A stretch of 50,882 nt of DNA from Candidatus Geothermincola secundus (GCA_015711755.1 JACVIY010000001.1:1-50882); one strand, 5' to 3'; counted from the stretch's first letter, positions 1 through 50,882 are shown. Program-made: numbers and translations. Notes: generated by a model from the letters alone, not told the origin.

Positions 1-436
1 CTTCAACCTGAACGAGCTGGTCACGGACTGGAACGTCTCCACCAAGGTGGTCTCGGAGGGAGGGGACGTCATCTGCGAGCGGGCCATGTACGGGAACGGC
101 GACGCCTGGGCCCACGACTCCATCGGGGTAACCGATCCCTCCTCCGTCTGGTACCTCGCCGAGGGCTGCACCGAGGGCGGCATGAGGACATGGGTGCTGG
201 TGCAGAACCCCAACGACGACCCGGTCAGGGTGGACCTCACCTTCATGACCACCGGGGGCAAGGTGGACGGGCCTCAGGACTTCGAGATAGCCGGCAATTC
301 CCGCTACTCCTTCAACCTGAACGAGCTGGTCACGGACTGGAACGTCTCCACCAAGGTGGTCTCGGAGGGAGGGGACGTCATCTGCGAGCGGGCCATGTAC
401 GGGAACGGCGACGCCTGGGCCCACGACTCCATCGGG
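1..436 (+). repeat. Exact 127-nt direct repeat (1-127 = 310-436) with a 309-nt period, equal to one 103-codon protein module.
   Basis: Base-by-base comparison shows identity from 1/310 through 127/436. The first mismatch is at 128 (g) versus 437 (c). Identity may extend upstream of the window. Confidence 0.95.
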
Positions 437-448
437 CGCAAGCCTTGA
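2..448 (+). CDS. 3' end of a secreted repeat-module protein (5'-truncated by the window edge). It holds one partial and one complete copy of the ~103-aa AEG...QNP...ER.MY...H module.
   Basis: The reading frame is open from the window edge (same frame as listed ORF 47..448) to TGA at 446-448. The translation ...FNLNELVTDWNVSTKVVSEGGDVICERAMYGNGDAWAHDSIG / VTDPSSVWYLAEGCTEGGMRTWVLVQNPNDDPVRVDLTF... is a diverged version of the module seen in the three large secreted proteins at 12072, 26411 and 32697. Confidence 0.7.
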   Translation, partial: FNLNELVTDWNVSTKVVSEGGDVICERAMYGNGDAWAHDSIGVTDPSSVWYLAEGCTEGGMRTWVLVQNPNDDPVRVDLTFMTTGGKVDGPQDFEIAGNSRYSFNLNELVTDWNVSTKVVSEGGDVICERAMYGNGDAWAHDSIGRKP

Positions 449-10985: not shown

Positions 10986-11249
10986 CTACTTCTTCGCGGC
11001 GGGCTTCTTGGCCGCAGGCTTCGCGGCGGGCTTCGCGGCGGGCTTCTTGGCCGCAGGCTTCGCGGCGGGCTTCGCGGCGGGCTTCTTGGCCGCGGGCTTC
11101 TTCGCGGCGGGCTTCTTGGCCGCAGGCTTCGCGGCGGGCTTCTTGGCCGCGGGCTTCTTCGCGGCGGGCTTCTTCGCCGCCGGCTTCGTTGCGGCGGGCT
11201 TCTTGGCCGCCGGCTTCTTCGCCGCGGGCTTTTTCGCTGTAGCCATCAC
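10986..11249 (-). CDS. Histone H1-like / HU-tail-like lysine-alanine-proline repeat protein made entirely of AAKKP/AAKP repeats.
   Basis: This is an 87-aa ORF: M(M)ATAKKPAAKKPAAKKPAATKPAAKK...PAAKK. The RBS AAGGAGAGG lies 4-7 nt upstream of GTG-ATG at 11249/11246. An AT-rich island at 11358-11398 lies further upstream. The DNA is a 12/15-nt tandem repeat array with a 39-nt higher-order unit. Confidence 0.75.
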   Translation of the reverse strand: MMATAKKPAAKKPAAKKPAATKPAAKKPAAKKPAAKKPAAKPAAKKPAAKKPAAKKPAAKPAAKPAAKKPAAKPAAKPAAKKPAAKK

Positions 11250-12071
11250 GCCTCTCCTTTCTCGCTACGGCTTTTACGATCAATATTTTCTACGATGCCG
11301 GCCTTTTCCCTTTTCCCCCGAGAACGGTTGCCGAGAACCCCATACCGTCTCCCGCTGTTAAATTAAACAAGTTATATAAAATAATATAAATAAAGACCCC
11401 GTGGCCAGGCGAAGAAAGCGTCTTTTGCAGTGGGGCGGCATCGTTGGGAGCAATAGCCCTTGCCAGCCGCGTAAGCAAGAACGCAGCTTCGACCGTCGAG
11501 GTGATGGCGGACGGGCCGACAGGGGTGATAACCGCCTCGCTGTCCTCGAGACGATACCTCCGGGGTTCTTGCGGGGCTGTTGCGCACGATGGCGGGTGTC
11601 GTTCGGGGCTCTCCCTGCGCTTTATCAGTCGATACCCTGCCTCTCCGTACTCTACTTGCAGTGAAAGAGTGCCCGGGAGCGGCTCACTGCCCCGCTCTCA
11701 TGGAGAAGCCCCGGCCCGACGCGGGCGCCGGGGTCCTTACTCACCTCGAAGCGAGAGCTCGCCTCGGTCAGGATGTTTTCCGTCGCCGGGGTAAGATGCA
11801 AGGGCCGATGGGAACGCCGCTCCTGTGAAGACGGCGGCTGCCGAAAAAAAGGAAAAGGGTATCGGACCGTGAGTGGCTCATAGGGCCTGCTGCACGGAAA
11901 AGGCGGTTCGGTATATAATCTATGCGGGAATGGCGTTCGAGAGAATGCGAGTTTTAGGGTTTGCGGCCGACCACTTCATAGTCGACCTCCGTCTTAAGTC
12001 GCAGAAGCATGGAGCTCGCAGAACTTGTTGCCATTTCCAGCAGGACGCGACGGTCGGGAGGAGGTCGAGCG

Positions 12072-14708
12072 ATGAAGAAAACCTTGGAAGTGAGCGCGAG
12101 GTCATGGTCGGCGTTCTTTCTTTGCGCGCTGACGGCGCTGGCCGCCCTGGCGGCCGCTCCCCGCCACAAGGCCAAAGCGGCTGTCGACACCGGGCCCGTC
12201 CTGCTGGTCTCCAGGAACGCGAGCGGCGCGGAAGGCAATGCTCTTTCGCTATACCCCAGCATCAGCGGAGGCGGCAGGTACGTGGCCTTCGAGTCCGAGG
12301 CGGACAACCTTATCCCGGGCGCCAGCGGCCTTCATATCTACCGTAAGGACGTCGCCTCGGGCGAGATATCGCTCTGCTCCGCGTCCGGCGAGGGGGTGGA
12401 AGGCAACAGTAGCAGCTATTTGCCCAGCATCAGCGCGGACGGCACCTACGTGGCTTTCCAATCGTACTCGAGCAACCTCATTCCCGGCCATCCCACCACC
12501 CATCTGCAGGTGTTCCGCAAGGACCTGGTGACGGGAGAGGTGATGCTCTGCTCCGCCAGGTCGGACGGGGTGCAGGGCAACAGCAACAGCTTTAACCCTT
12601 CCATCAGCGCCGACGGGCGCTACGTGGCCTTCTCCTCCATCTCCGACAACCTCATACCTTCAGCGGCGATCTCCGGGCAGCAAATCTACCGCAAGGATCT
12701 GGCCACGGGCGAGATCGTGCTGGTCTCCTCTTCGCTACAGGGGACCAAAGGGGACGGGGTTTCATCCTTCCCGTCCATCAATTCGGACGGCAGATACATC
12801 GCGTTCGAATCAGAGGCGGACAACCTGGTCCCCGGCGTCTCCAGCGCTTTCTCCCAAGTCTACCGCAAGGATGTGGTTTCCGGGAAGATCATGCTGGCCT
12901 CCTCCTCATCGGCGGGATCGCAGGGAAACGGTGAAAGCGCCCATCCCGACATATCCGCCGACGGCCGCTTCGTGGCTTTCAAATCTGAATCGGGGAACCT
13001 TACGCCCGGCGTTTCCGTCGGGCGGCAGCACGCTTACCGGAAGGACTTGCAGAGTGGGGCGGTCAACCTGTGTTCCTCCACGGTTGCGGGGGCGCAGGGC
13101 AACGATCATAGCTGCATCAATGACGGCCCCTCCATCTCCGCTGACGGTGCGTATGTCTCATTCGAGACAAAGGCCACCAACCTGAGCTCTTTCATAGTGA
13201 GCGGGAAAAATGCCATCGTACGCAAACACGTCATCGACGGCGAAGTCAGTTGCTGCTCAGTCTCCGCGTCGGGGCAGGCGGCGAACGGCAGCAGTTTTTC
13301 TTGCGACATCAGCTCCGACGGCAGGTTCGTCGCCTTCGACTCCAGGGCCACCAACCTCATCGACGGAGAGACCACCTCCGACCAACAGATCTTCCGAAAA
13401 GAACTGCCCCACGAGACCTCTTTCTACTTCGCGGAGGGCTACACCGGCGCCGGTTTCCAGGAGTACCTGTGCCTGGGCAACCCGGGAGGCGCGGATATAG
13501 ACGTATCCTATTCCTACATCTTCCCGGACGGCCCCGTGCAATACGGCACCCTGAGGGTGCCGGCCGGTTCCCGCGTCACCGTGGACGTGAACTCCACGGT
13601 GGGGGCGGGGCGCGAGGTCTCCATCGCCGTTTCCTCCGCTGACCCCTTCTCGGCCGAGCGCCCCATGTACTTCGACTACGGATCGGGGTGGACGGGCGGC
13701 CACGACGCGCTGGGTGCCCCCCGAACCAACACTTCCTTCTACTTCGCGGAGGGCTACACCGGCCCCGGCTTCGAGCAGTGGGTCTGCGTGCTCAATCCCG
13801 GCGGCGCCGATGCCTCCCTGGATTTCCGCTTCCAGACCCAGGAGGAAGGCGAGGTCCTCAAGACCGGCTACACGGTGCCGGCCAATTCCCGCCGCACCTT
13901 CAAGGTCAACGAGGTGCTGGGCGCGGGTTACCAGAACTCTCTGCAGCTGTCTTCCGACCAGCCCATCGTGGCGGAACGCCCCATCTACTTCGAATACGGT
14001 GGCACCGCCGGATATGACTGGACCGGCGGCCACTGCGTGATGGGCACCGACTATCTCAAGCGCGAGTACTACTTCGCCGAGGGCTATACCGGGCCCGGCT
14101 TCGAGGAGTGGCTGACCCTGCAGAACCCCAACCCCCTGGCCGTCCTGGTCACCGCCGTCTATCAGTTCGGCGACGGAGCCACCCCCCTGAAGATCGACTA
14201 CAGCATCCCCGCGGGCACCCGCAAGACCGTGTTCGTCCCCGACGAAGTGGGGTTGAACCGGGACGTGTCGGTCAAGCTCATCTGCGACTCCCCCTTCCTG
14301 GCGGAGCGGCCCATGTATTTCCGCTACTCGGGAACGGGCGGGTATGGCTGGACCGGCGGCCACTGCGTCATCGGCGCCTCCTTCCGCCGCAAAGACCTCT
14401 TCTTCGCGGAAGGGTACACGGGGCCGGGCTTCGAGGAGTGGCTGTGCATCCAGAACCCCGGCGCCGCCACCGCGCACCTGCGCATAACCTACTACACCCA
14501 AGAGGAGGGAAAGCTGGAGGAGCGCTACGTGGACGTCGCCTCCGCCTCGCGCATGACCCTGAACGTCAACGCCCACGCTGGGCCGGGATACCAGCTCTCC
14601 AGCCGCGTGGAGGTCACCTCGGGTTCGTGGATAATCGTGGAACGGCCGATGTATTTCAACTACAACGGATGGACCGGCGGCCACGACGTGGTGGGCTACG
14701 GCCTCTGA
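12072..14708 (+). CDS. Secreted protein: signal peptide, seven PD40-like beta-propeller blades, and a 4x AEGYTGPGF-module cassette.
   Basis: The start ATG 12072 (MKKTLEVSARSWSAFFLCALTALAALAAAPRHKA) is preceded by GGGAGGAGG. There are seven repeats of GN..S..PSIS.DGR[YF]VAF.S.A.NL.P......YRKD...GE. Four modules then each begin [FY]FAEGYTG.GF. Confidence 0.85.
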   Translation: MKKTLEVSARSWSAFFLCALTALAALAAAPRHKAKAAVDTGPVLLVSRNASGAEGNALSLYPSISGGGRYVAFESEADNLIPGASGLHIYRKDVASGEISLCSASGEGVEGNSSSYLPSISADGTYVAFQSYSSNLIPGHPTTHLQVFRKDLVTGEVMLCSARSDGVQGNSNSFNPSISADGRYVAFSSISDNLIPSAAISGQQIYRKDLATGEIVLVSSSLQGTKGDGVSSFPSINSDGRYIAFESEADNLVPGVSSAFSQVYRKDVVSGKIMLASSSSAGSQGNGESAHPDISADGRFVAFKSESGNLTPGVSVGRQHAYRKDLQSGAVNLCSSTVAGAQGNDHSCINDGPSISADGAYVSFETKATNLSSFIVSGKNAIVRKHVIDGEVSCCSVSASGQAANGSSFSCDISSDGRFVAFDSRATNLIDGETTSDQQIFRKELPHETSFYFAEGYTGAGFQEYLCLGNPGGADIDVSYSYIFPDGPVQYGTLRVPAGSRVTVDVNSTVGAGREVSIAVSSADPFSAERPMYFDYGSGWTGGHDALGAPRTNTSFYFAEGYTGPGFEQWVCVLNPGGADASLDFRFQTQEEGEVLKTGYTVPANSRRTFKVNEVLGAGYQNSLQLSSDQPIVAERPIYFEYGGTAGYDWTGGHCVMGTDYLKREYYFAEGYTGPGFEEWLTLQNPNPLAVLVTAVYQFGDGATPLKIDYSIPAGTRKTVFVPDEVGLNRDVSVKLICDSPFLAERPMYFRYSGTGGYGWTGGHCVIGASFRRKDLFFAEGYTGPGFEEWLCIQNPGAATAHLRITYYTQEEGKLEERYVDVASASRMTLNVNAHAGPGYQLSSRVEVTSGSWIIVERPMYFNYNGWTGGHDVVGYGL
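12198..13415 (+). other. Seven tandem PD40 (TolB-like WD40-like) propeller blades within the CDS.
   Basis: The seven blade cores are PSISGGGRYVAFESEADNLIPG, PSISADGTYVAFQSYSSNLIPG, PSISADGRYVAFSSISDNLIPS, PSINSDGRYIAFESEADNLVPG, PDISADGRFVAFKSESGNLTPG, PSISADGAYVSFETKATNLSS and CDISSDGRFVAFDSRATNLIDG. The period is about 47-52 aa. Confidence 0.75.
13416..14705 (+). repeat. Four-copy cassette of the ~105-aa AEGYTGPGF module, with units starting near 13416, 13731, 14064 and 14394.
   Basis: The units begin TSFYFAEGYTGAGFQEYLCLGNPGG, TSFYFAEGYTGPGFEQWVCVLNPGG, EYYFAEGYTGPGFEEWLTLQNPNP and DLFFAEGYTGPGFEEWLCIQNPGA. Each ends ...AERPMYF.Y....GGH...G. Confidence 0.9.
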
Positions 14709-17182: not shown

Positions 17183-18453
17183 ACCATCCGCGCATCAAGC
17201 GGGATCTTTCCGCTTTCCTGGACGGGGAGCTCGGGGAGCGGCGCAGCCGTGAGATCTCGCTGCACCTCGAACGCTGCGCGGGGTGCAGGGAGGCGGTGGA
17301 GGAATTACGCCTCTTGCGGGAGGCCGTGTCCTCCCTTCCCCGCAGGGGCCTGAGCGAGGAGGGGCACCGCCGCCTGATGTCCGGCCTGTCCGAAGCGGCG
17401 AGGGAAAGGGAAGATGAGGAGCGCGTGAAGAGGGCGGCCGTCATCCCCAGGATGGCCACCGCCGCGGCGGTGCTGCTGGCCCTGCTGGTCGTGACCATAG
17501 CGGTCATGACCACCCCTGTCGGGAGGCAATCGGTCAGACAGGAGGGAGAACGAGGAGAGGAGGCCTCCCCTTCGGTCTCGGGGGCTGAAAGCGCTGAACG
17601 CAACGCGGCGGGTGGAGTCGATAAAGCTGGGCGGGAGGATGGCGGGGCTCCTGCCGCAGCGGTCTCCCAATACTCGGGGGAGCTGCTGACGGCGATCCCC
17701 GTGCCCCACTTTGAGCATGCAGGAAGGGATTACACGGAAGAGCAGGCGAACGAGTACTCGGCCGACCTCGGGACGCGGCTAGATTTCTACTCCGGCTTTT
17801 GGCATCCCTCCCCTCCATCCGATGAGCTGGTGGCGGAGGCGAGGCGGCGCTGCAGGGAGAGCCTTGAGGATCAGGCCCTGAGGAGCGGCCGGGACGCAAA
17901 GGGGCTTTTGAGGGCGCTGGATTCCATCGAAACAGCCATGGGCCCCAAGGCCTCGGAGGCGCTTCCCTGCTTCGTGGAGGAGGCGACTTACCGCGGGAAG
18001 AGGGTTTTCATCATCTCCTGCAGCAGGCCCGACGATTCCCTGCTCTTCACCGACAGCGACCTGGTCTCGCTGGTCAACCTCATCAGGCAGTCCACGCCTG
18101 ACGGGCTTATGCGCAGCAGCGATGCCCAGCTGGAGATAGCCGCTTCGCTGATGCCCTCTCCCCGTTTCAACGCGGCGCTGCCCCTGAGGGAAGCTGAGGC
18201 GCAGGATGTGAGCGCCGAGGCCTGCGCCCTGGGCGATTTCCAAGCGGTCCTGCACGCGCTGGCCTCAGAGAACAATCTGGTCTCTTACCTGAGGGAGGTC
18301 TCTCGGCTGGATTCGGGCCACCTGCTGGCAACGCTGTTCCGGGAGCTGGGCTCCCCCCTTCAGATCAGCAGCCGTCTTCTCGAACTGCTCACCATGCGGG
18401 TATGGATGGTGGATGCCGCAAGCGGCGAGGTGCTGTCGCGGCCCTCCCGCTGA
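17179..18453 (+). CDS. Anti-sigma factor (zf-HC2 N-terminus, one TM helix, ~300-aa extracytoplasmic domain of unknown type).
   Basis: FLDGELGERRSREISLHLERCAGCREAVEEL is the H-x3-C-x2-C anti-sigma motif. The TM segment is AAVIPRMATAAAVLLALLVVTIAVMTT. The TTG start overlaps the sigma stop (TTGA). Confidence 0.8.
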   Translation: MNHPRIKRDLSAFLDGELGERRSREISLHLERCAGCREAVEELRLLREAVSSLPRRGLSEEGHRRLMSGLSEAAREREDEERVKRAAVIPRMATAAAVLLALLVVTIAVMTTPVGRQSVRQEGERGEEASPSVSGAESAERNAAGGVDKAGREDGGAPAAAVSQYSGELLTAIPVPHFEHAGRDYTEEQANEYSADLGTRLDFYSGFWHPSPPSDELVAEARRRCRESLEDQALRSGRDAKGLLRALDSIETAMGPKASEALPCFVEEATYRGKRVFIISCSRPDDSLLFTDSDLVSLVNLIRQSTPDGLMRSSDAQLEIAASLMPSPRFNAALPLREAEAQDVSAEACALGDFQAVLHALASENNLVSYLREVSRLDSGHLLATLFRELGSPLQISSRLLELLTMRVWMVDAASGEVLSRPSR

Positions 18454-26410: not shown

Positions 26411-28966
26411 ATGAGAAGGGTAGGGAAGAGCGCCGGGCCCGTCATCCTCGCCTTTTCATCCCTCCTCATCATCCATCTTGCCCTCTTTCCCCTCCGGCCC
26501 GCGGCGGCAGCGGGGGAGGGCGGGCCCTCCTGGCACTCATTCGTGTTTTCCCTGGTGCATGAGGACCACGCTCTCCTCCAGAGGGTGGAGGGGGCCGTCA
26601 GGTCGCTGTTGCCGGCAGGCGCCTCCTGGGGCGGGGCGGAGCGGCTCTTCGACAGAGTCTTCCGGCTGCGGCTCCCGACCCCCCTCCCCGTCTCCGCCGT
26701 CCTCGCGCTGCTGCGGGGGTCCCCGGCGGTGGAATACGCCGAGGCGGACGAGCTCAGGAGTGCCCTGGAGATCCCCGACGATCCCTACTACGGGCAGCAG
26801 TGGCACTTCGCTTCCATAAGGGCGGAGGAGGGCTGGGAGGTCACCCGCGGATCCTCCTCGCTGACCATAGCGGTGATCGATACCGGGGTGGATTTGGCCC
26901 ATCCCGATCTGGCGGGCAGGCTGCTCCAAGGGTATGACTTCGTGGCGGCCGATGAGTATCCTTGGGACGAGAACGGCCACGGCACCCATGTGGCCGGATT
27001 GGCCGCGGCGGCCACCGACAACGGCGTGGGAGTGGCCGGGGTGGACTGGAACGCCCGGGTATTGCCGCTGCGGGTGCTGGACGCCTCGGGAAGCGGGTAC
27101 GATTCGGACATCGCCTCCGCCATCCGATACGCCGCCGACAACGGCGCTGACGTCATCAACCTGAGCCTGGGCTCTTCAACCCCCTCGTACACGCTGCAGA
27201 ACGCGGTCAGCTACGCCTACGGCAAGGGGGTGGTCATCGTGGCCGCGGCAGGCAACGACGGCTCGGGCAGCGTCTCCTATCCCGCCGCCTACAGCGGGGT
27301 CATCGCGGTGGGGGCGTTGGACAGCGGCGACCGCAAGGCCGACTTCTCCAATTACGGCAGCAAGCTGGACCTGATGGCGCCGGGCGTGGGGGTCTATTCC
27401 ACCTATGCGGGAGGGCGCTATCAGAGCATGAGCGGCACCTCCATGGCCTCGCCGCTGGTGGCCGGGGCGGCCTGCCTGGTGCTGGCGGCGTTTCCCTCGC
27501 TCGAGGGGAGGCCGGACGATGTGGCGGGGAAGCTGACCTCCTCCGCTCGCGACCTGGGCGCCGCCGGGTTCGACGAATATTACGGCTACGGGAAGCTGGA
27601 CCTGGCCTCAGCTCTGAAGGGAGGCGGACCTGAGCCCCCACCACCTCCTCCACCCCCTCCTCCGCCGGGAGACGAGCTCGATTCCATAAGCGGGGGCAGG
27701 ACCGCCTGGTACCTGGCGGAGGGGTATACCGGCCCCGGGTTCCAGACATGGCTGCTGCTGCAGAACCCCAACACCAGGGAGGCGCGGGTGACCGTGCAGG
27801 CGGCCACCTCGCGGGGGGAGAACGATGCGGCGGCCGTCACCATGCCCCCCCAGTCCCGCTGCACCATGAACCTCAACGCGCGCTGGCCGGACCGCGAACT
27901 CTCCGCTTACGTGGGCGTGAGCAACGGCGTGGGGATACTGGTGGAGAGGTCCATGTACTTCAACGACGGGGTGCGCGAAGGGGGGCACCGCGTGGCGGCC
28001 TCGCCCGAGGCCTCCACCTCCTGGTATTTCGCCGAGGGCTTCACCGGCCCCTCCTTCGACGAGTGGATACTGGTGTTCAACCCCCAGACCGCGGCGCAGA
28101 ACTGCCTGCTGCGCGTGCTCACCGGCACCGGCGCCATCCTCGAGTTCGAGTACCACCTCCCGGCGCGGTCCCGCGTCACCGTCCACATGAACGAACTGGT
28201 GCCGGGCCAGGAGTCCTCCATCCACCTCATCAGCGACCTTCCGGTGGTCGCGGAGCGCTCGATGTATTTCGACTACGGCGGGTCCGGAGACGGTCACGCC
28301 AGCATGGGGTGCCGGACGCTCTCATCGGACTGGTACTTCGCCGAGGGATATACCGGCCCCGGTTTCGACGAGTGGATACTGGTCCTTAACCCCTACTATT
28401 ACTACACGGTGAGCGCCCGCTTCGAGTTCTATTTCCCCGACGGCACCCGTACCTCCCGCACTTACGAACTACCGCCGGTCTCGCGCAACACCTTCAAGGT
28501 CAACGACATCGTCGGCTCGCGCGAGGTCTCGGTGCGCCTGACCACGCCGGCTGATTTCCCCGTGCTGGCGGAGAGGGCCATGTACTTCAAATACGCGGGC
28601 CGCTGGGGGGGCGGGCACGGCGCCCTCGGCGTTCCGGAGGCCGCCACGACCTGGGGGCTGCCCGAGGGCTACAAGGGACCGGGGTTCGACACCTGGGTCA
28701 TGGTGATGAACCTCGGGGACGCCGTTTCCTCCACCGCCTTCTACCTGCTCTACCCGGACGGGACCCACGATTACCTCGCTTTCAACATCGCCCCCCATTC
28801 CCGCTTCACCCTGCTGGCCGACGAGGTGGCCCGGCAGGACGAGTTCTCGGTGGTGGTGAGCTCGGCCAACGGCCAGCCGCTGGTGGTGGAGAGCTCGCTC
28901 TATTTCGGGACCGGCTCTTTTGACGGCGGCTCCTGCGAGTCGGCCCTTTCCCTTTTTCACGATTGA
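26411..28966 (+). CDS. Secreted subtilisin-like S8 serine peptidase with an 11-proline linker and a 4x AEGYTGPGF-module cassette.
   Basis: ATG 26411 (MRRVGKSAGPVILAFSSLLIIHLALFP) follows GGGAGGG. The catalytic triad contexts are AVIDTGVD, HGTHVAG and SGTSMASP, plus NLSLG. The linker PEPPPPPPPPPPPG has 11 consecutive Pro codons at 27635-27667. Four modules follow. Confidence 0.9.
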   Translation: MRRVGKSAGPVILAFSSLLIIHLALFPLRPAAAAGEGGPSWHSFVFSLVHEDHALLQRVEGAVRSLLPAGASWGGAERLFDRVFRLRLPTPLPVSAVLALLRGSPAVEYAEADELRSALEIPDDPYYGQQWHFASIRAEEGWEVTRGSSSLTIAVIDTGVDLAHPDLAGRLLQGYDFVAADEYPWDENGHGTHVAGLAAAATDNGVGVAGVDWNARVLPLRVLDASGSGYDSDIASAIRYAADNGADVINLSLGSSTPSYTLQNAVSYAYGKGVVIVAAAGNDGSGSVSYPAAYSGVIAVGALDSGDRKADFSNYGSKLDLMAPGVGVYSTYAGGRYQSMSGTSMASPLVAGAACLVLAAFPSLEGRPDDVAGKLTSSARDLGAAGFDEYYGYGKLDLASALKGGGPEPPPPPPPPPPPGDELDSISGGRTAWYLAEGYTGPGFQTWLLLQNPNTREARVTVQAATSRGENDAAAVTMPPQSRCTMNLNARWPDRELSAYVGVSNGVGILVERSMYFNDGVREGGHRVAASPEASTSWYFAEGFTGPSFDEWILVFNPQTAAQNCLLRVLTGTGAILEFEYHLPARSRVTVHMNELVPGQESSIHLISDLPVVAERSMYFDYGGSGDGHASMGCRTLSSDWYFAEGYTGPGFDEWILVLNPYYYYTVSARFEFYFPDGTRTSRTYELPPVSRNTFKVNDIVGSREVSVRLTTPADFPVLAERAMYFKYAGRWGGGHGALGVPEAATTWGLPEGYKGPGFDTWVMVMNLGDAVSSTAFYLLYPDGTHDYLAFNIAPHSRFTLLADEVARQDEFSVVVSSANGQPLVVESSLYFGTGSFDGGSCESALSLFHD
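27701..28963 (+). repeat. Four-copy cassette of the AEGYTGPGF module (diverged), with units starting near 27701, 28016, 28325 and 28646.
   Basis: The units begin TAWYLAEGYTGPGFQTWLLLQNPN, TSWYFAEGFTGPSFDEWILVFNPQ, SDWYFAEGYTGPGFDEWILVLNPY and TTWGLPEGYKGPGFDTWVMVMNLG. Each has ...SR.T...N... and [AV]ERSMYF / ERAMYF / ESSLYF. Confidence 0.85.
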
Positions 28967-32696: not shown

Positions 32697-35600
32697 GTGA
32701 GGGTCCGGGTTCTCTGCGAACGGCTTATGACGGCCCTTTTCATGATGATGCCGTTGGTGATCCTTCCGCTGCCGGCCGGAGCCGCAACGGCTCATATGCG
32801 GGTCTGGGTGGTCTCCGACGGCGACAAGGTCCTGCGGGACGAGGTTCCCAGGGATTCTTCGGCCGTGTGGTCGCGGCAGGCCGGCAGGGTGGCCCTGCAT
32901 GCGGCCAGAGGCGAGAGCGTGGCCTTTCAGGTGATGGTCACGGCGGAGGGAGCGGACCTGCACGGGGTCAATGCGGTCCTGCAGGGACTGGCGGGACCGG
33001 GCGGCGGCTTGCCCGCTTCTTGCATAGAGATGTTCCGAGAGCATTACCTGCACGTCACCGAGCCCTCCACGGCCATGTACGGGGAGCAGTCCACCAGCGG
33101 ACCGGGATGGTATCCGGATCCACTGGTACCCGCGGGCGCTCCCGATGGGGGCCTCCCCTGCGACATATCCGCGGGACTCAACCAGGGGGTCTGGGTGGAC
33201 ATACGCGTGCCCGATGAAGCCCCGCCCGGCATCTACGCCGGCGATCTCAGGGTGATCGCCGCCGGGGAGGCGGAGGTGGTCATCCCCGTGTCGCTGGAGG
33301 TATGGGATTTCTCACTGCCCGACGAGACCCACCTCCCCAGCTTTTTCATCTATCAGCCGGATCAGCTCGCGGATGCGCACGGTGTGGCCAAATATTCGGA
33401 CGAATATCTGAGCATCGAGGCGGAATACGCCCGTATGGCCCGGTCCCATCGCATGAACTTTTCCACTTCCGTATATCCGGAGGTGCAGGGTTCGGGCAGC
33501 GGGACCACCATCATCTGGGACTCCTGGCACGACGGGTTCGCCTCCCGCCACCTGGACGGCACCGTTTTCCCCGACGGCAGGGGCAGCGCTCTCTACGCCC
33601 TGCCCATAGGACTGGACTTCCCCGACCCATCACAGCACGGGGGTCTCGGCAGCCCGGAGTTCGAGGCCACCTTCACCGCCATGCTCACCCAGTTCGGCGA
33701 CCACTTCAGGGAGAGGGGCTGGTTCGACCGCTCGTTCCTATATATCGTTGACGAGCCCAACAGCGCCGAGGAATACGATCTGGTGCGCTATTACGGGGAC
33801 CTCATCGACCGCAGCGGAGCGGGGTTCCCCTTCATGGTGACCGAGGGTCCGACGCCGCAGGACCCGTCCTGGGGGAGCCTCGCCGGCTACGTGGACATAT
33901 GGTGCTGCGGGGGAAGCGCCTGGCCCGGTCCCATGCAGGCGCGGCAGGCTCTGGGGGAGGGGGCCTGGACCTACAACGGAGGCGAGCCCTACGCCGGCAG
34001 CCAGATCATCGACACCCCGGGAGTGGCCATGCGTTCCTGGGGGTGGATAGCGCGTCGCTACGGGGTGGAATGCTGGCTCCTCTGGGACGTCTGTTATTTC
34101 CATGACCTCTACAACGGATGTGACTGGAACGACGTCTGGACCGATCCCCTGACCTTCGACCAGCGGCGCGGCGGGGGTTCCTGGCCTGACTGGGGAAACG
34201 GGGACGGTACCCTTTTCTACCCGGGCGCGCCGCGGGGCATCGGCGGGCCCGTTTCCTCCCTGCGCATGAAGAACTGGCGCAGGGGTGCGCAGGACTACGA
34301 ATACATGTGGCTGCTGGACCGGCGGGGGAAGGGCGACCTGGTGCGGGAGCTGTTGGATCAGGTGGTGCCCTATGCCTTCGGGGATGCGGAGGGCAGGCAG
34401 ACGGGATGGAGCGATGACCCCGCCGCGTGGGAGGCGGCGCGACTGGCCATGGGGGAAGAGCTGGACGGGCACCCCGCCTATCCGTTCAGGTTTTACTTCG
34501 CTGAAGGGTACACCGGGGCCGGTTTCCGGGAGTACCTGTGTCTGGGCAATCCGGGGCCCGACCCGGCCTCGGTCCTCATCGAGTATTTCTTCTCGGGCGG
34601 GGAGAGAGACTTCCAGACCCTGACCGTACCCCCGGGATCCCGGGCCACCGTGGACGTCAACTCCCGGGTGGGGCCGGGCCGCGAGGTCTCCGCGGTCGTC
34701 TACGCCGACCGGACGCTGGGAGCGGAGCGGCCGTCGTATTTCGCCTACGGACCGGGGTGGACCGGAGGGCACGACGTGGTGGGAGTTCACTCTCCCTCAG
34801 AGGAATGGTACTTCGCCGAGGGCTATACCGGGCCCGGCTTCGACCAATGGGTCTGCGTGCTGAATCCCGGGGGTGAAGACGCCGCGCTCACCTTCCGCTT
34901 CCAGACGGAGGAGGAGGGGGAGGTTATCAGGGAGGGATACCGGGTGGAGGCGGGATCCCGCGCCACCTTCATGGTCAACGAGGTGCTGGGGGAGGGCTAC
35001 CAGGCCTCCCTTCATCTGCAGTCGGATGAGCCGGTGGTGGCGGAGCGCCCCATGTACTTCTATTATGCGGGCACCGGGGGTTACGGCTGGGACGGCGGGC
35101 ACTGCGTAGCCGGGGCGGTTGGCCTGGCCCGCGAGTACTTCTTCGCCGAGGGCACCACCCGGGGCGGGTTCGAGGAATGGCTTACGCTGCAGAACCCGGG
35201 GGACTCCGGGATCGTGATCCGCGCGCAGTACCAGCTGGGGCCGGGACAGGGGGACCCCGTGCAGCGCGATTATACCGTGGGGGCGGGAAGGCGACTGACG
35301 GTGAGGGTGGAGGATGAGGTTGGGGCGGAGAATGACGTCTCGGTGCGCCTGAGCGCGGACGCGGATTTCCTGGCGGAGCGCCCCATGTATTTCCGATACC
35401 AGGGCTACGGGGCGGACTGGGACGGCGGGCACTGCGTCATCGGCGCGACCTCCCTCGCCTCCGACGCCTTCTTCGCCGAGGGCTACACCGGTGGGGGGTT
35501 CCATACCTGGCTGTGCCTGCAGAATCCAGGGGACGAAACGGCTGACGCGGAGGTGGTCTTCCTGACCCAGGAGGCGGGCGCGCTCTCGCCGGCGCTTATT

Positions 35601-36644
35601 TCCGTCCCGGCCCGCAGCAGGTTCACGGCAAGGGTGAACGATCTGGCGGGGACGGGTTATCAGCTGTCCATCCTGGTCCGGGTCACCTCGGGACCACCGC
35701 TGGCGGCCGAGCGCCCCGTTTACTTCGACCTCGACGGGCTGAACGGCGGCCACGACGCGGTGGGAAGATCCCTGATCCCCGAGACCCTGGCGACGGTGGA
35801 TGACTTCGCCTATCAGCTGCAGGAAGTGGACCTCACCGTTTTGGGAGACTCCGCCTTCGACCTCGTGGTGATGGATTATTCCTCCGACGGGAGCGAGGAG
35901 GGACGATGGTCGGCGGGGCAGGTCGCTTCGCTGAAGCACAGTCCCGGCGGAGACAAAACGCTGCTTTCATATATGAGCATAGGGGAGGCTGAGGACTATC
36001 GCTGGTACTGGCGGGACGAATGGGACGCCGACCGCGACGGGTCGCCGGACCCCGGCGCGCCGCCATGGCTGGGGCCGGGCAACCCGGAATGGCCGGGGAA
36101 CTACAAGGTGCGCTACTGGGATCCCGCATGGCAGGAGATCCTCAAAAGCTACCTGGACAGGATAATCGAAGCTGGCTTCGACGGGGTCTATCTGGACATA
36201 ATCGACGCCTATGAGTACTGGGGGCCGGGCGGGGAGAGCGGCCTGGAACGCGCTACGGCGGAGGAGGAGATGGTGGAGCTGGTAAGGTCGATAGCCCGGT
36301 ACTGCAGGGTGGAGAGGGGGCGCGCCGGATTCCTGGTCTTCCCCCAGAACGGTGAGGGGCTGGCGTCGCACCCCGATTACGTCGATGTCGTCTCGGGCAT
36401 AGGCAAGGAGGACCTCTGGTACATGGACGATGCCCCCCAGCCCGCCGACTACACCGAGAGGGCCCTGGCCTACCTGGACGTCTTCCTGCGGGCGGGGCGC
36501 AAGGTGCTGGTGACCGACTACGTGACCGCGCCGGCCCTCATCGATGATCTCTACGCCAGGGCCGAGGCGCGGGGCTATGTCCCCTACGCCACCGTGCGCG
36601 ACCTTGACTTCCTCACCGTCAACCCCGGCCACGAACCCGACTGA
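32697..36644 (+). CDS. Secreted multidomain glycoside-hydrolase-like protein: a DUF4091-like N-terminal domain, the 4x AEGYTGPGF cassette, and a GH114 / TM1410-family domain.
   Basis: This is a 1315-aa ORF. The signal-like N-terminus is MTALFMMMPLVILPLPAGAATA. The N-domain segment ...VIPVSLEVWDFSLPDETHLPSF... is DUF4091-like. The cassette spans 34485-35770. The C-terminal segment is ...LLSYMSIGEAEDYRWYWRDEW...NYKVRYWDPAWQEIL...IIEAGFDGVYLDIIDAYEYW, the pattern of endo-alpha-1,4-polygalactosaminidase/TM1410-type hydrolases. The start could be GTG 32697 or ATG 32727. Confidence 0.8.
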   Translation: MRVRVLCERLMTALFMMMPLVILPLPAGAATAHMRVWVVSDGDKVLRDEVPRDSSAVWSRQAGRVALHAARGESVAFQVMVTAEGADLHGVNAVLQGLAGPGGGLPASCIEMFREHYLHVTEPSTAMYGEQSTSGPGWYPDPLVPAGAPDGGLPCDISAGLNQGVWVDIRVPDEAPPGIYAGDLRVIAAGEAEVVIPVSLEVWDFSLPDETHLPSFFIYQPDQLADAHGVAKYSDEYLSIEAEYARMARSHRMNFSTSVYPEVQGSGSGTTIIWDSWHDGFASRHLDGTVFPDGRGSALYALPIGLDFPDPSQHGGLGSPEFEATFTAMLTQFGDHFRERGWFDRSFLYIVDEPNSAEEYDLVRYYGDLIDRSGAGFPFMVTEGPTPQDPSWGSLAGYVDIWCCGGSAWPGPMQARQALGEGAWTYNGGEPYAGSQIIDTPGVAMRSWGWIARRYGVECWLLWDVCYFHDLYNGCDWNDVWTDPLTFDQRRGGGSWPDWGNGDGTLFYPGAPRGIGGPVSSLRMKNWRRGAQDYEYMWLLDRRGKGDLVRELLDQVVPYAFGDAEGRQTGWSDDPAAWEAARLAMGEELDGHPAYPFRFYFAEGYTGAGFREYLCLGNPGPDPASVLIEYFFSGGERDFQTLTVPPGSRATVDVNSRVGPGREVSAVVYADRTLGAERPSYFAYGPGWTGGHDVVGVHSPSEEWYFAEGYTGPGFDQWVCVLNPGGEDAALTFRFQTEEEGEVIREGYRVEAGSRATFMVNEVLGEGYQASLHLQSDEPVVAERPMYFYYAGTGGYGWDGGHCVAGAVGLAREYFFAEGTTRGGFEEWLTLQNPGDSGIVIRAQYQLGPGQGDPVQRDYTVGAGRRLTVRVEDEVGAENDVSVRLSADADFLAERPMYFRYQGYGADWDGGHCVIGATSLASDAFFAEGYTGGGFHTWLCLQNPGDETADAEVVFLTQEAGALSPALISVPARSRFTARVNDLAGTGYQLSILVRVTSGPPLAAERPVYFDLDGLNGGHDAVGRSLIPETLATVDDFAYQLQEVDLTVLGDSAFDLVVMDYSSDGSEEGRWSAGQVASLKHSPGGDKTLLSYMSIGEAEDYRWYWRDEWDADRDGSPDPGAPPWLGPGNPEWPGNYKVRYWDPAWQEILKSYLDRIIEAGFDGVYLDIIDAYEYWGPGGESGLERATAEEEMVELVRSIARYCRVERGRAGFLVFPQNGEGLASHPDYVDVVSGIGKEDLWYMDDAPQPADYTERALAYLDVFLRAGRKVLVTDYVTAPALIDDLYARAEARGYVPYATVRDLDFLTVNPGHEPD
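34485..35770 (+). repeat. Four-copy cassette of the AEGYTGPGF module, internal to the protein, with units starting near 34485, 34797, 35130 and 35460.
   Basis: The units begin FRFYFAEGYTGAGFREYLCLGNPGP, EEWYFAEGYTGPGFDQWVCVLNPGG, REYFFAEGTTRGGFEEWLTLQNPGD and DAFFAEGYTGGGFHTWLCLQNPGD. The unit order is collinear with the cassette at 13416-14705. Confidence 0.9.
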
Positions 36645-49939: not shown

Positions 49940-50677
49940 TTGGTCCTGCAGTGGGCGGAGGGGCTGATCTGCCTGGTGGCGGGGCTCATCTTCGCCGCGT
50001 GCGCCCTGCGCATACGCGGCCTCTCCGCGAGCAAGGCATTGAGGGTGAGGCGGGCAGCTTCCGCCAATGCCCTGCTGTGGGCGGCCGTGGCTGCCGGGAG
50101 CTTCCTGCTGACCCTGGCCGCCGCCCTCACCGTTTCCGGATGGGAGGAGGCGGGGGACGTGGCTCGCTCAGCATCCGCACTGTCCTGGGGGATCGTGGTG
50201 ATCCCCCTTTTCTACCTCTACGGCTACCTAATCCTCCGGGAGCCGTGGGAGGCCCATCTGGCGGGAGCGGTGGGAGCCGTCATCTTCGCCGCGGGTTCGC
50301 TGGCGCTGTTCCGGGCCCCCCGCGCCGTGGTGGAGGTGGCAGAGGGCTACCGCATACAGACGGTGGAAGATGCGCTCACCCGCTTCGCCATCCTCTCCGT
50401 CGTCCTTATCATCGGCGCGGTAGTCAGCGCTTTCCTGTGGCGCATCTCAAGAGATCTGGAGGGATTGGGACGCTGGCGGAGCGTGTTGGGCACCCTGGCC
50501 CTGAGCGTCTTCGTCCTCTCCATGCTGGTCCGCCTGGCCTGGCAGGTCCTGGCGGCCACCTTCGCCTCGCGCTTCCTCCTCCTCGCCTCCGCCCTCCTGC
50601 TGTATTGGGGGTATTTCCTGCCGCCCCGGCATTACCTTAAGGGGGAGCGCAAGGAAGACGGCCGGGTACAGCCATGA
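49940..50677 (+). CDS. Polytopic integral membrane protein, function unknown.
   Basis: This is a 245-aa ORF with about 6 hydrophobic segments, including LICLVAGLIFAACAL, ALLWAAVAAGSFLLTLAAAL, WGIVVIPLFYLYGYLIL, AVGAVIFAAGSLALF, AILSVVLIIGAVVSAFLW and LALSVFVLSMLVRLAW. The start is TTG. Confidence 0.6.
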   Translation: MVLQWAEGLICLVAGLIFAACALRIRGLSASKALRVRRAASANALLWAAVAAGSFLLTLAAALTVSGWEEAGDVARSASALSWGIVVIPLFYLYGYLILREPWEAHLAGAVGAVIFAAGSLALFRAPRAVVEVAEGYRIQTVEDALTRFAILSVVLIIGAVVSAFLWRISRDLEGLGRWRSVLGTLALSVFVLSMLVRLAWQVLAATFASRFLLLASALLLYWGYFLPPRHYLKGERKEDGRVQP

Positions 50678-50882
50678 CTTCAATTGGGGCCGAGCCCAAA
50701 CCTTCAACTTTTCTCAGCAAGACCCTGGATCTATATGAGCGCTTTTTGCCAGACATATTGGGGGTATTTCCTGCCGCCCCGGCATTACCTTAAGGGGGAG
50801 CGCAAGGAAGACGGCCGGGTACAGCCATGACTTCAATTGGGGCCGAGCCCAAACCTTCAACTTTTCTCAGCAAGACCCTGGA
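50603..50882 (+). repeat. Exact 127-nt direct repeat (50603-50729 = 50756-50882) with a 153-nt period, running to the window end.
   Basis: Base-by-base identity holds across the repeat, and the flanking bases differ (50602 g versus 50755 a). Each copy contains the last 25 codons plus the stop of the 49940 gene and one copy of the 39-nt motif (50677-50713 and 50830-50866). The spacer is 26 nt (50730-50755). Confidence 0.95.

What the first reader, a model, noticed from the sequence alone, without database searches (positions are those of the whole stretch)
34485..35770. The cassette moves as a unit: repeat n of one gene matches repeat n of another better than its own neighbours
**Unit-by-unit correspondence with the cassette at 13416-14705.**
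- Unit 1: FYFAEGYTGAGFREYLCLGNPG versus FYFAEGYTGAGFQEYLCLGNPG.
- Unit 2: by hand count, 76 of 103 ungapped positions are identical (WYFAEGYTGPGFDQWVCVLNPGGEDAALTFRFQTEEEGEV... versus FYFAEGYTGPGFEQWVCVLNPGGADASLDFRFQTQEEGEV...).
- Unit 3: both share ...EEWLTLQNP...DVSV[KR]L...FLAERPMYFRY.G.G..W.GGHCVIG.
- Unit 4: both share ...WLC[IL]QNPG...GYQLS..V.VTSG...ERP.YF...GGHD.VG.

**Interpretation.** Within a single protein, the unit interiors are far more diverged from each other. This implies that an ancestral 4-unit cassette was duplicated or shuffled whole between genes, rather than each gene expanding its own repeats. In this gene the cassette is internal, between two hydrolase-like domains, so it is not simply a C-terminal tail. 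A 35-nt identical DNA stretch (14070-14104 = 34809-34843) could support recombination between paralogues.
Basis: seen in the sequence. Interest (0 to 1): 0.7.

Follow-up and report, generated by a model that had tools for sequence, protein, structure and literature searches.

The report
Shared four-unit ASRT-like protein module
A block of four related ~100-residue beta-sandwich units is one ready-made protein module that this uncultured actinobacterium and its relatives attach to many different secreted enzymes, which is why unit n of one gene matches unit n of another; it is a large, unstudied branch of a known domain family, not a new kind of element.

Summary
Gene B (32697-36644) and gene A (12009-14708) each carry four ~100-aa units. 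A-B identity is 63/74/61/54 % at the same position and 42-53 % at different positions. Neighbour-joining bootstrap for the An+Bn pairs is 95/97/99.8/75 %; for clades by gene it is 0 %.

The units are ASRT/TM1070-like (ASRAH) beta-sandwiches, which Pfam labels DUF5719. Tandem tetrads of this domain were described in 2009. AlphaFold2 predicts each of two tetrads as one rigid body (pTM 0.94 and 0.92). In public data the copy number is four, or eight as two tetrads. The same differentiated order 1-2-3-4 recurs in 113 of 206 test proteins, placed N-terminally, C-terminally or internally on many unrelated, mostly secreted domains. The tetrad is therefore the unit of folding, inheritance and domain shuffling.

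Synonymous sites between A and B are saturated. The 35-nt identity is improbable by chance (P about 0.001) but out of register: A unit 3 matches B unit 2.

The window holds two more tetrad genes. C is divergent and shows no positional match. D is cut by the window edge and has perfectly identical internal repeats.

The likely role is glycan binding that retains or targets secreted proteins; this is inferred, not shown.

The parts
32697..36644 (+). Gene B, 1315 aa: signal-peptide-like N-terminus, GH123-like domain, four-unit tetrad, GH114/TIGR01370 domain
   Evidence: ORF. Pfam GH123_cat 78 bits, Glyco_hydro_114 75.6 bits, DUF5719 61.5 bits. TIGR01370 256.7 bits. N-terminal hydrophobic stretch.
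32880..34313 (+). GH123-like N-terminal and catalytic domains of B (aa 62-539)
   Evidence: Pfam PF22680 and PF13320. The closest homologues (65-71 % identity) carry one, two or four units at the same junction.
34491..34784 (+). B unit 1 (type 1; 98 aa; GGHD tail, short loop)
   Evidence: (margin 36 bits).
34806..35114 (+). B unit 2 (type 2; 103 aa; GGHC tail, long loop)
   Evidence: (margin 60 bits). 76/103 identical to A unit 2.
35136..35444 (+). B unit 3 (type 3; 103 aa; GGHC tail; Thr at the position of TM1070 Cys29)
   Evidence: (margin 72 bits).
35466..35765 (+). B unit 4 (type 4; 100 aa; GGHD tail)
   Evidence: (margin 43 bits).
35784..36623 (+). GH114 / TIGR01370 (MJ1477/TM1410-type) putative glycoside hydrolase domain of B (aa 1030-1309)
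12009..14708 (+). Gene A, 899 aa as the longest ORF (likely start at MKKT, aa 22): PD40/TolB-like propeller repeats followed by a C-terminal tetrad
13422..14696 (+). A tetrad: units at 13422-13715, 13737-14045, 14067-14375, 14397-14696, of types 1-2-3-4
   Evidence: (margins 44/63/36/49 bits).
26411..28966 (+). Gene C: subtilisin S8 protease, poly-Pro linker, then a divergent C-terminal tetrad with units at 27707-28000, 28022-28306, 28331-28630, 28652-28945
   Evidence: Peptidase_S8 213 bits. No positional type (margins 4-6 bits). AF2 pLDDT 94.7, pTM 0.92.
1..445 (+). Gene D, 3' end only (cut by the window edge): the last ~1.4 units of a homogenised array; nt 1-127 and 310-436 are 100 % identical
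   Evidence: Homologues are mostly contig-end fragments.
34809..34843 (+). 35-nt stretch identical to 14070-14104; encodes YFAEGYTGPGF(D/E) at the start of B unit 2, matching the start of A unit 3
   Evidence: P about 0.001 under resampled synonymous codons.
14070..14104 (+). Partner of the 35-nt identity, at the start of A unit 3

Best explanation
The segment encodes a tetrad of ASRAH (ASRT/TM1070-like) eight-stranded beta-sandwich units joined by constant 7-residue linkers.

The four units fold together into one rigid body. I infer that this body is a single-chain, differentiated version of the homotetramer formed by the stand-alone relatives TM1070 and ASRT. Each position has acquired its own signature. 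Positions 1 and 4 have a GGHD tail and a short loop. Positions 2 and 3 have a GGHC tail and a long loop. The Cys equivalent to the predicted ligand residue of TM1070 is kept in positions 1, 2 and 4 and is Thr in position 3.

Because only the complete set is a functional domain, the tetrad is the unit that is inherited, duplicated and shuffled between genes. That is why unit n of A matches unit n of B. A and B are old paralogous copies of this module, fused to unrelated domains. They are not products of recent exchange.

Functionally the tetrad is most likely a non-catalytic glycan-binding module on exported proteins. I favour retention on the cell's own envelope polysaccharide (about 55 %) over targeting to an external polysaccharide substrate (about 45 %).

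Shown: homology and fold of the units; copy number of four or eight among high-copy proteins (one- and two-unit forms also exist); position-specific orthology; confident compact prediction; promiscuous fusions; export signals.

Inferred: the tetramer-like geometry, sugar binding and the anchoring role.
For: Fold and family.
- The unit profile hits TM1070 (1NC7, E=7.5e-4) and ASRT (2II7, E=9e-3) as the best PDB sequences.
- In Foldseek the only credible structural matches are 1NC7 (TMt 0.79, prob 1.0) and 2II7/2II8/2IIA (TMt 0.69-0.81).
- Pfam ASRT scores above its cut-off in homologues (30-52 bits) and DUF5719 scores above its cut-off in A and B.

Rigid body.
- AF2 of the B tetrad gives pLDDT 96.9 and pTM 0.94.
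- AF2 of the divergent C tetrad gives pLDDT 94.7 and pTM 0.92.

Copy number.
- All complete proteins among the top 120 hits have exactly 4 units.
- In a single-unit profile search of 1.84 billion representatives, whose ranking favours high copy number, 123 of 137 new top proteins have 4 units and 8 have 8 as two tetrads. The rest are mostly fragments.
- Even P0133, with three 100 % identical units, has exactly 4 units on a 486-kb contig.
- One-, two- and four-unit forms occur on the same GH123-like scaffold.

Block inheritance.

Promiscuous fusion, with the tetrad N-terminal, C-terminal or internal. Partners include TIG, GH17, Beta-lactamase2, SpoIID, Amidase_3, CHAP, Beta_helix, SNase, Esterase_PHB, NHL, PD40, S8 and GH123/GH114.

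Many paralogues per genome: at least 10 of the 80 retained loci come from one MAG, and this 51-kb window holds four.

Export: 150 of 201 complete proteins have a basic-then-hydrophobic N-terminus, against 2 in an internal control region. A, B and C all have one.

Literature: PMC2739507 reports that solo ASRAH proteins are tetramers, that other family members occur as dyads or tetrads, and that sugar binding is predicted.
Against: - I could not inspect model coordinates, so the ring or tetramer-like arrangement and its match to the 1NC7 tetramer are untested. pTM shows only a fixed arrangement.
- The MSA used for the C model consisted mostly of canonical tetrads.
- No ligand, binding or localisation data exist.
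- The His of the ASRT 'SHE..C..N' pocket motif is not conserved.
- The top-150 list cannot show how common 1-3-unit proteins are.
- Arrays of near-identical units break or collapse in short-read assemblies, so their true copy numbers are uncertain.
- A few proteins show 5 or 7 unit matches (P0139, P0230, P0124).
- Variants 4-2-3-4 and 2-3-4-x show that single units are occasionally replaced.
- Strict monophyly of each position class has only 30-82 % bootstrap in a 30-protein set.
Confidence: 0.72

Rival explanations
1. Recent recombination or gene conversion between paralogues A and B in this genome copied the cassette from one gene to the other.
For: - The 35-nt exact match is unlikely if synonymous sites are random (P about 0.001).
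- A and B are mutual best matches in units 1+2 (69 %) but only average in units 3+4 (58 %). The difference has z=2.0, and 2.3 % of protein pairs are as extreme.
Against: - The 35-nt match is out of register (A unit 3 versus B unit 2) and covers the most conserved peptide motif.
- Same-codon identity across positional pairs (0.43-0.61) is at the saturation expectation (about 0.5) and no higher than for non-positional pairs.
- Nucleotide identity is only 60-75 % for units 1, 2 and 4 (unit 3 needs a one-residue indel).
- Overall A-B identity (64 %) barely exceeds that to proteins from other genomes (63-65 %).
Confidence: 0.05
2. Each gene expanded its own repeats independently, and units at the same position became similar through convergent structural constraint.
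For: In-gene duplication or homogenisation does occur in this family.
- Gene D has DNA-identical units.
- P0133 has three 100 % identical units and P0284 has two.
- In 68 undifferentiated tetrads, within-protein identity (54-56 %) exceeds between-protein same-position identity (46-50 %).
Against: For A and B the gene-wise clades have 0 % bootstrap, while positional pairs have 75-99.8 %. Interior residues, including variable loops and position-specific indels, are shared. The same 1-2-3-4 types occur in more than 100 other proteins. Identity of 68 % over unit interiors is not plausibly convergent.
Confidence: 0.02
3. The units are generic Ig-like 'beads on a string' that act as a spacer or stalk, with no obligatory four-unit assembly. 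On this view the count of four reflects shared ancestry only.
For: Foldseek also lists many multi-Ig-domain chains (alpha-2-macroglobulin, fibronectin) with low E-values. The tetrads sit next to TIG and CarboxypepD_reg arrays in large surface proteins.
Against: - Those Foldseek matches have rmsd above 20 A and TM-scores at or below 0.21.
- pTM of 0.92-0.94 indicates fixed inter-unit geometry.
- Linkers are a constant 7 residues.
- Four units are kept in lineages where the units were re-duplicated or homogenised.
- Eight-unit proteins consist of two tetrads.
- Solo relatives are tetramers.
Confidence: 0.08
4. Functional rival with the same structure: the tetrad is a carbohydrate-binding module that targets each enzyme to an external polysaccharide substrate, and does not hold proteins on the producer's own envelope.
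For: Many partners are glycoside hydrolases (GH17, GH123-like, GH114). The ASRAH superfamily is predicted to bind sugars.
Against: The same tetrad type is attached to proteases, beta-lactamase-like proteins, nuclease, esterase, PD40 and NHL propellers and Ig-like arrays, which share no substrate. It is also attached to peptidoglycan enzymes (Amidase_3, CHAP, SpoIID) that act on the cell's own wall. There are many paralogues per genome. This pattern resembles wall-anchoring modules such as SLH or CWB2 (my knowledge; analogy only).
Confidence: 0.3

Closest known systems
ASRAH superfamily: Anabaena sensory rhodopsin transducer (ASRT, PDB 2II7) and Thermotoga TM1070 (PDB 1NC7); De Souza, Iyer & Aravind 2009, PMC2739507
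   Same: - The fold matches (TMt 0.7-0.8, prob 1.0) and there is profile-level sequence similarity.
- The aromatic residue at the start of strand 1 and the invariant Asn ending strand 2 are conserved, as is the E..C..N spacing of the pocket strand.
- The solo proteins are homotetramers. Here four units are fused in one chain.
   Different: ASRT and TM1070 are single-domain, intracellular proteins. Here the units are fused fourfold, differentiated by position, carried on exported proteins, and lack the pocket His.
Amidase-associated ASRAH tetrads of Chloroflexi (family 2 of PMC2739507)
   Same: Four tandem ASRAH units in a secreted protein. The paper already proposed that they form a hetero-tetramer-like structure and bind wall glycans. 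Amidase_3 + tetrad proteins also appear among the homologues found here (P0094, P0112).
   Different: That family was described as always fused to an amidase and as found mainly in photosynthetic Chloroflexi. Here the host is Actinomycetota of the Geothermincolia type. There are many kinds of partner domain, the tetrad can be N-terminal, C-terminal or internal, and the order 1-2-3-4 is fixed.
Pfam DUF5719 (PF18986), corresponding to the actinobacterial lipoprotein family with an ASRAH dyad (family 3 of PMC2739507)
   Same: This is the best Pfam match (50.8-61.5 bits, cut-off 26.2). It belongs to the same phylum.
   Different: The matches cover only the unit part of the 319-position model, about positions 47-240. 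The window has four units where that family has two, shows no lipobox architecture, and fuses the units to catalytic domains.
SLH triplets and CWB2 triplets, the multi-repeat cell-wall-anchoring modules of Firmicutes and other bacteria (my own knowledge; analogy only)
   Same: A fixed number of tandem repeats forms one pseudo-symmetric binding module. The module is attached to many unrelated secreted proteins in a genome, and repeats correspond by position between paralogues.
   Different: There is no sequence or fold relationship. Those modules have three helical or Rossmann-like repeats; this one has four beta-sandwiches. Wall binding is not demonstrated here.

Membership tests
ASRAH / ASRT superfamily | Significant profile similarity to ASRT/TM1070 | tested here: met
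   The 12-unit profile finds 1NC7 at E=7.5e-4 and 2II7 at E=9e-3 as the top PDB sequences. Pfam ASRT scores 30-52 bits in homologues (cut-off 25). In the window proteins it is borderline, at 23.6 and 24.8 bits.
ASRAH / ASRT superfamily | Eight-stranded beta-sandwich superposable on TM1070 | tested here: met
   Foldseek: 1NC7 TMt 0.79, rmsd 2.6 A over 118 columns, prob 1.0; 2II8/2IIA TMt 0.69-0.81. The query is an AF2 model (pLDDT 96.9), not an experimental structure.
ASRAH / ASRT superfamily | Conserved aromatic residue at the start of strand 1 and near-invariant Asn at the end of strand 2 | tested here: met
   W/F/Y precedes YFAEG, and the Asn of the 'NP' motif is invariant in all four units across 40 sequences.
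ASRAH / ASRT superfamily | Ligand pocket residues (His and Cys of SHEshChhN) | tested here: inconclusive
   The Cys equivalent is kept in positions 1, 2 and 4 and is Thr in position 3. The His equivalent is E/Q/D/R. The paper notes that other ASRAH families use their own residues at these positions.
ASRAH / ASRT superfamily | Tetrameric assembly (four units per particle) | not testable with these tools
   Indirect evidence only: pTM 0.94 and 0.92, and 1-, 2-, 4- and 8-unit forms.
Amidase-associated ASRAH tetrads (Chloroflexi) | Four tandem ASRAH units | tested here: met
Amidase-associated ASRAH tetrads (Chloroflexi) | Always fused to an N-acetylmuramoyl-L-alanine amidase | tested here: not met
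   The window genes carry GH123-like + GH114, PD40 and S8 domains. Only a minority of homologues have Amidase_3.
Pfam DUF5719 (actinobacterial dyad lipoprotein) | Score above the Pfam gathering threshold | tested here: met
   61.5 and 50.8 bits against a cut-off of 26.2.
Pfam DUF5719 (actinobacterial dyad lipoprotein) | Full-length architecture: lipobox signal, N- and C-terminal extensions, two units | tested here: not met
   Matches cover profile positions of about 47-240 of 319 only. There are four units, not two, and they sit in multidomain enzymes.
Pfam DUF5719 (actinobacterial dyad lipoprotein) | Conserved neighbourhood with whiB, a glycosyltransferase and an inactive zincin | not tested
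   The neighbours I scanned are AMP-binding, DUF4143 ATPase, sigma/anti-sigma and others. None of the expected genes was seen, but I made no systematic search.
Cell-wall-anchoring repeat modules (SLH, CWB2): functional class only | Binds the producer's own wall polymer and retains proteins at the surface | not testable with these tools
   Circumstantial only: export signals, many paralogues per genome, diverse cargo including wall enzymes.

The most novel reading that the evidence does not exclude
The differentiated 1-2-3-4 ASRAH tetrad is the general surface-display anchor of Geothermincolia-type Actinomycetota. On this reading it is a single-chain hetero-pseudo-tetramer that evolved from a homotetrameric sugar sensor. 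It would bind a lineage-specific envelope glycan and tether dozens of exoenzymes, propeller proteins and Ig-array proteins per cell, making it a functional analogue of SLH or CWB2 with an unrelated fold. The conserved YFAEGYTG-coding DNA at unit starts would serve as microhomology for module swaps between solo, dyad and tetrad forms.
Probability: 0.3. Interest if true: 0.6.

Novelty: new member of a known kind. Interest (0 to 1): 0.4.

Why it matters
It explains a puzzling repeat pattern by a simple principle: the four units form one domain. It also turns an uncharacterised label (DUF5719, for which a full-text search found no paper) into a testable hypothesis.

The family is large. A single-unit profile finds 7912 representative proteins at E<=1e-3, and some MAGs carry at least ten paralogues.

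If the tetrad is a wall or glycan anchor, it would define the exoproteome display system of an uncultured actinobacterial class. It would also provide a compact, modular glycan-binding tag.

The family is a clean natural series in which oligomer subunits become fused and differentiated: solo, dyad, homogeneous tetrad and differentiated tetrad forms all occur.

Practically, near-identical versions of these arrays break metagenome contigs, as at the start of this window.

Tried and rejected
- Full-text search for 'DUF5719' found 0 papers. 'ASRAH' found only the 2009 paper. The 'Geothermincolia' papers do not concern this module.
- NCBIfam has no model for the tetrad.
- The BFVD viral fold search gave only spurious multi-Ig matches (TM below 0.2, rmsd above 19 A).
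- The IMG/VR scan found 2 loci and none fused to a lysin. One tetrad ORF lies about 670 nt upstream of an Amidase_2 endolysin, which is too weak to use.
- The listing of cluster members gave no organism names for the undifferentiated tetrads, so their taxonomy stays unknown.
- The window's own proteins are not in the protein database and no GTDB locus is near-identical. The source genome is therefore known only as a relative of Ca. Solincola/Geothermincola.
- I considered a dyad-duplication origin, which predicts 1~3 and 2~4. The cross-position identities (39-44 %) give no such signal.
- I considered that the 35-nt match is pure codon bias. This was rejected at P about 0.001, but the match still does not support cassette-level exchange.
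- I considered intra-cassette mosaicism between A and B. There is only a weak hint (z=2.0).
- I could not obtain model coordinates to test ring closure or superpose on the 1NC7 tetramer.

Full report
**1. What is at the coordinates**

Positions 34485-35770 lie inside a 1315-aa ORF, gene B (32697-36644, + strand). Pfam and NCBIfam assign its parts as follows:
- an N-terminal GH123-like region (aa 62-539);
- a C-terminal GH114 / TIGR01370 putative glycoside hydrolase (aa 1030-1309);
- between them, matches to DUF5719 and, just below threshold, to ASRT.

The middle part consists of four units of 98, 103, 103 and 100 aa joined by 7-residue linkers. Each unit starts with [FWY][YF]FAEGYTGxGF..W.C..NP and ends with AERPMYF...GGHxxxG.

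Gene A (12009-14708) has PD40/TolB-like propeller repeats and the same four-unit block at its C-terminus.

**2. Check of the observation**

Every quoted string is present, and unit 2 is exactly 76/103 identical without gaps.
- Same-position identity between A and B is 63/74/61/54 %. Different-position A-B pairs are 42-53 % identical, and units within one gene 43-54 %.
- In unit interiors the values are 45/68/46/43 %, against a mean of 28 % and a maximum of 37.5 % for other pairs.
- The 1-2-3-4 pairing is the best of the 24 permutations.
In 1000 NJ bootstraps of the 12 window units, A1+B1, A2+B2, A3+B3 and A4+B4 are recovered in 95, 97, 99.8 and 75 %. Clades 'all units of A' and 'all units of B' are never recovered.
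- BLASTP similarity between A and B starts and stops at the cassette borders: A472-899 = B599-1026, 60.6 % identity.

**3.

A six-frame scan with a unit HMM finds two more cassette genes.
- Gene C (26411-28966) is a subtilisin S8 protease with a poly-Pro linker and four C-terminal units. Its units are divergent (28-52 % identity to A and B units) and carry no positional signature.
- Gene D is the 3' end of an ORF cut by the left window edge (1-445). Its last two units share 127 nt that are 100 % identical at a 309-nt spacing.
- Homologues of D in the protein database are almost all 110-260-aa fragments, many labelled 'partial' and several on long contigs, as expected for genes cut at contig ends. 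Such homogenised arrays evidently break short-read assemblies, and probably ended this contig.

**4. The 35-nt identity**

The stretch 14070-14104 = 34809-34843 is real.
- It joins the start of A unit 3 to the start of B unit 2 and encodes YFAEGYTGPGF, the most conserved motif.
- I resampled synonymous codons from the genes' own usage. The longest A-B match then averages 20 nt (95th percentile 27) and reaches 35 nt in 0.1 % of 1000 trials. The match is therefore unlikely to be chance.
- It is nevertheless out of register and isolated.
- Same-codon identity at identical residues between positional pairs is 0.57/0.61/0.58/0.43. The saturation expectation is 0.49-0.52, and out-of-register pairs give 0.42-0.67.

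There is no sign of recent cassette-wide exchange between A and B. At most there is a short ectopic conversion tract or selection on these codons.

**5. What the units are**

- A profile of the 12 units finds Thermotoga TM1070 (1NC7, E=7.5e-4) and the Anabaena sensory rhodopsin transducer (2II7, E=9e-3) as the best PDB sequences.
- AlphaFold2 on a 40-sequence alignment predicts the B cassette with mean pLDDT 96.9 and pTM 0.94.
- In Foldseek against the PDB the only credible matches are 1NC7 (TMt 0.79, rmsd 2.6 A, prob 1.0) and ASRT chains (TMt 0.69-0.81). Each covers one unit. The multi-Ig chains ranked by E-value have rmsd above 20 A and TM-scores at or below 0.21.
- No solved structure contains a single-chain tetrad.

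De Souza, Iyer and Aravind (PMC2739507) defined this superfamily as ASRAH. They noted that the solo proteins are tetramers whose predicted sugar-binding cleft is partly formed at a dimer interface. [quoted passage not shown]

The diagnostic residues are present: an aromatic residue at the start of strand 1, an invariant Asn ending strand 2, and the E..C..N spacing. The cassette is therefore an ASRAH tetrad, which is a known kind of arrangement.

**6. Four is a structural number**

- Searching 5.8 billion proteins with the B cassette returns 931 hits. All complete proteins among the best 120 have exactly four units with 7-residue linkers.
- A single-unit profile search of 1.84 billion representatives finds 7912 proteins at E<=1e-3. 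Its ranking favours proteins with many units. Of 137 new top proteins, 123 have four units and 8 have eight, arranged as two tetrads that are adjacent or separated by other domains. The remainder are mostly truncated.
- Four units are kept even where the units were recently duplicated or homogenised. P0133 has three 100 % identical units plus one at 90 %, followed by a stop, on a 486-kb contig.
- The divergent C tetrad is also predicted as one rigid body, with pLDDT 94.7 and pTM 0.92. Its MSA was dominated by canonical tetrads.
- On the GH123-like scaffold of gene B, relatives carry one unit (15 or more proteins), two identical units (P0284) or four (P0193, P0276, P0292). These are numbers that could complete a tetramer as 4x1, 2x2 or 1x4.

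I infer a single-chain pseudo-tetramer. I could not inspect coordinates, so the geometry is not shown.

**7. Position-specific orthology is general, with exceptions**

- Across 482 units from 123 proteins, the nearest neighbour has the same position in 96 % and lies in the same protein in 1.5 %.
- Position-specific HMMs trained on half of the canonical proteins classify 113 of 206 other proteins as 1-2-3-4, with margins of about 35-70 bits. A and B are both 1-2-3-4.
- The positions have fixed signatures. Positions 1 and 4 have GGHD and a 6-7-residue loop. Positions 2 and 3 have GGHC and a 10-11-residue loop. The TM1070-Cys29 equivalent is Cys in positions 1, 2 and 4 and Thr in position 3. This pattern suggests a pseudo-twofold relation between positions 1/4 and 2/3.

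Exceptions:
- the order 4-2-3-4 in Beta-lactamase2 fusions;
- the order 2-3-4-x in CHAP/amidase fusions;
- about 68 undifferentiated tetrads in which within-protein identity (54-56 %) exceeds between-protein same-position identity (46-50 %). This comparison is biased by the 50 % clustering of the library.

Both modes of evolution therefore exist. Block inheritance of a differentiated tetrad applies to A and B. In-gene duplication or homogenisation applies to D, P0133 and P0284.

**8. The cassette moves as a block**

- The same 1-2-3-4 tetrad is found C-terminal (most proteins), N-terminal (GH17, SNase) or internal (B).
- Its partner domains include TIG, GH17, Beta-lactamase2, SpoIID, Amidase_3, CHAP, Beta_helix/NosD, SNase, Esterase_PHB, NHL propellers, PD40, S8 and GH123/GH114. 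It also sits at the ends of large TIG or CarboxypepD_reg arrays.
- The nearest relatives of B's GH123-like domain (65-71 % identity) have a solo unit at the very junction where B has the tetrad. That solo unit is only 43-51 % identical to B unit 1. The appended module was therefore swapped rather than grown in place.
- P0292 is B's orthologue: 71 % identity over 936 aa with the same GH123-tetrad-GH114 order.
- A and B are about as close to each other (64 %) as to proteins of other genomes (63-65 %). They are mutual best matches in units 1+2 but average in units 3+4, a weak hint of mosaic ancestry (z=2.0).

**9. Host and likely function**

- Named homologues and 565 loci in GTDB species genomes come from Actinomycetota MAGs: Ca. 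Solincola, Ca. Geothermincola, Ca. Anoxymicrobiaceae and some Acidimicrobiales. There are many copies per genome, with at least 10 of the 80 retained loci coming from one MAG.
- 150 of 201 complete proteins have a signal-peptide-like N-terminus, against 2 in an internal control. A, B and C all have one.
- The cargo is very diverse and includes enzymes that act on the cell's own wall. The fold family is predicted to bind sugars.

The most likely role is a glycan-binding module that retains or targets exported proteins. I slightly favour retention on the producer's envelope. No binding evidence exists, and viral data gave no useful support.

**10. Verdict**

The suggested recombination between the two paralogues is not supported.

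The underlying cause is ordinary in kind: a multi-unit domain of the ASRAH superfamily, whose tetrads were noted in 2009. It is nevertheless a very large, uncharacterised and differentiated branch with an unusually wide range of fusion partners. No paper in the library mentions DUF5719 and NCBIfam has no model for the tetrad.

I rate it a new member of a known kind, of moderate interest.

Noticed in passing
window 1-445 (+): The 3' end of a fourth cassette gene (D) is cut by the window edge. Positions 1-127 and 310-436 are 100 % identical DNA at a 309-nt spacing. Its database homologues are almost all short fragments, many labelled partial, so near-identical unit arrays appear to break assemblies and their copy number is unknown.
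   Followed up: partly
window 50603-50882: A tandem repeat with a 153-nt period, 1.8 copies and 100 % identity runs into the right window edge. Both window ends therefore stop in perfect repeats.
   Followed up: no
window 10989-11237: A tandem repeat with a 15/30-nt period (about 17 copies, 76-80 % matches; unit CTTCTTCGCGGCGGG) lies in a region of overlapping low-complexity ORFs. The gene and its frame were not determined.
   Followed up: no
window 26411-28966 (+): Gene C is a subtilisin S8 protease with an 11-residue poly-Pro linker and a divergent four-unit tetrad that lacks the 1-2-3-4 signatures. Its fourth unit has lost the FAEG and GGH motifs (WGLPEGYK, GGSC). AlphaFold2 still predicts it as one rigid body (pTM 0.92).
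   Followed up: yes
proteins P0258-P0272, P0284, P0193, P0276, P0292 (homologues of window 32697-34484): The GH123-like domain of gene B occurs in relatives with one C-terminal unit (89 aa, lacking the GGH tail), two 100 % identical units, or the full tetrad. Only P0292 also has the GH114 domain.
   Followed up: yes
proteins P0017, P0031, P0053, P0084; P0095, P0112: Unit-order variants exist. Beta-lactamase2 fusions have the order 4-2-3-4, with 41-51 bits margin for the first unit. CHAP/Amidase_3 fusions have 2-3-4-x, where x is a different unit type (AEGTCR...). Single units can therefore be replaced, or the order permuted.
   Followed up: partly
window 32697-36644 (+): Gene B combines a GH123-like domain with a GH114/TIGR01370 domain. 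From my own knowledge, these families are tied to beta-N-acetylgalactosaminidase and endo-alpha-1,4-polygalactosaminidase activities. This suggests a bifunctional enzyme acting on a GalN/GalNAc polymer.
   Followed up: no
window 13422-13448 / 13737-13763: A 27-nt exact match links the starts of A unit 1 and A unit 2. Further 17-21-nt matches occur at the GGHC and ERPMYF motifs within and between cassettes. Nucleotide identity at the conserved motifs is somewhat elevated in general.
   Followed up: partly
L082:3887-5353 and L082:6019-6873 (IMG/VR contig IMGVR_UViG_3300044692_000080): One of only two viral-contig loci has a 488-aa ORF with a distant tetrad (27 % identity). It lies about 670 nt upstream of an Amidase_2 endolysin gene. 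It could be a receptor-binding protein, but no PHROG match was found.
   Followed up: partly
window 16457-18453 (+): About 1.7 kb downstream of gene A lie an ORF that reads like an ECF-type sigma factor (judged from the sequence by eye) and then an ORF with a zf-HC2 anti-sigma-type zinc finger. Their relation to the cassette genes was not examined.
   Followed up: no
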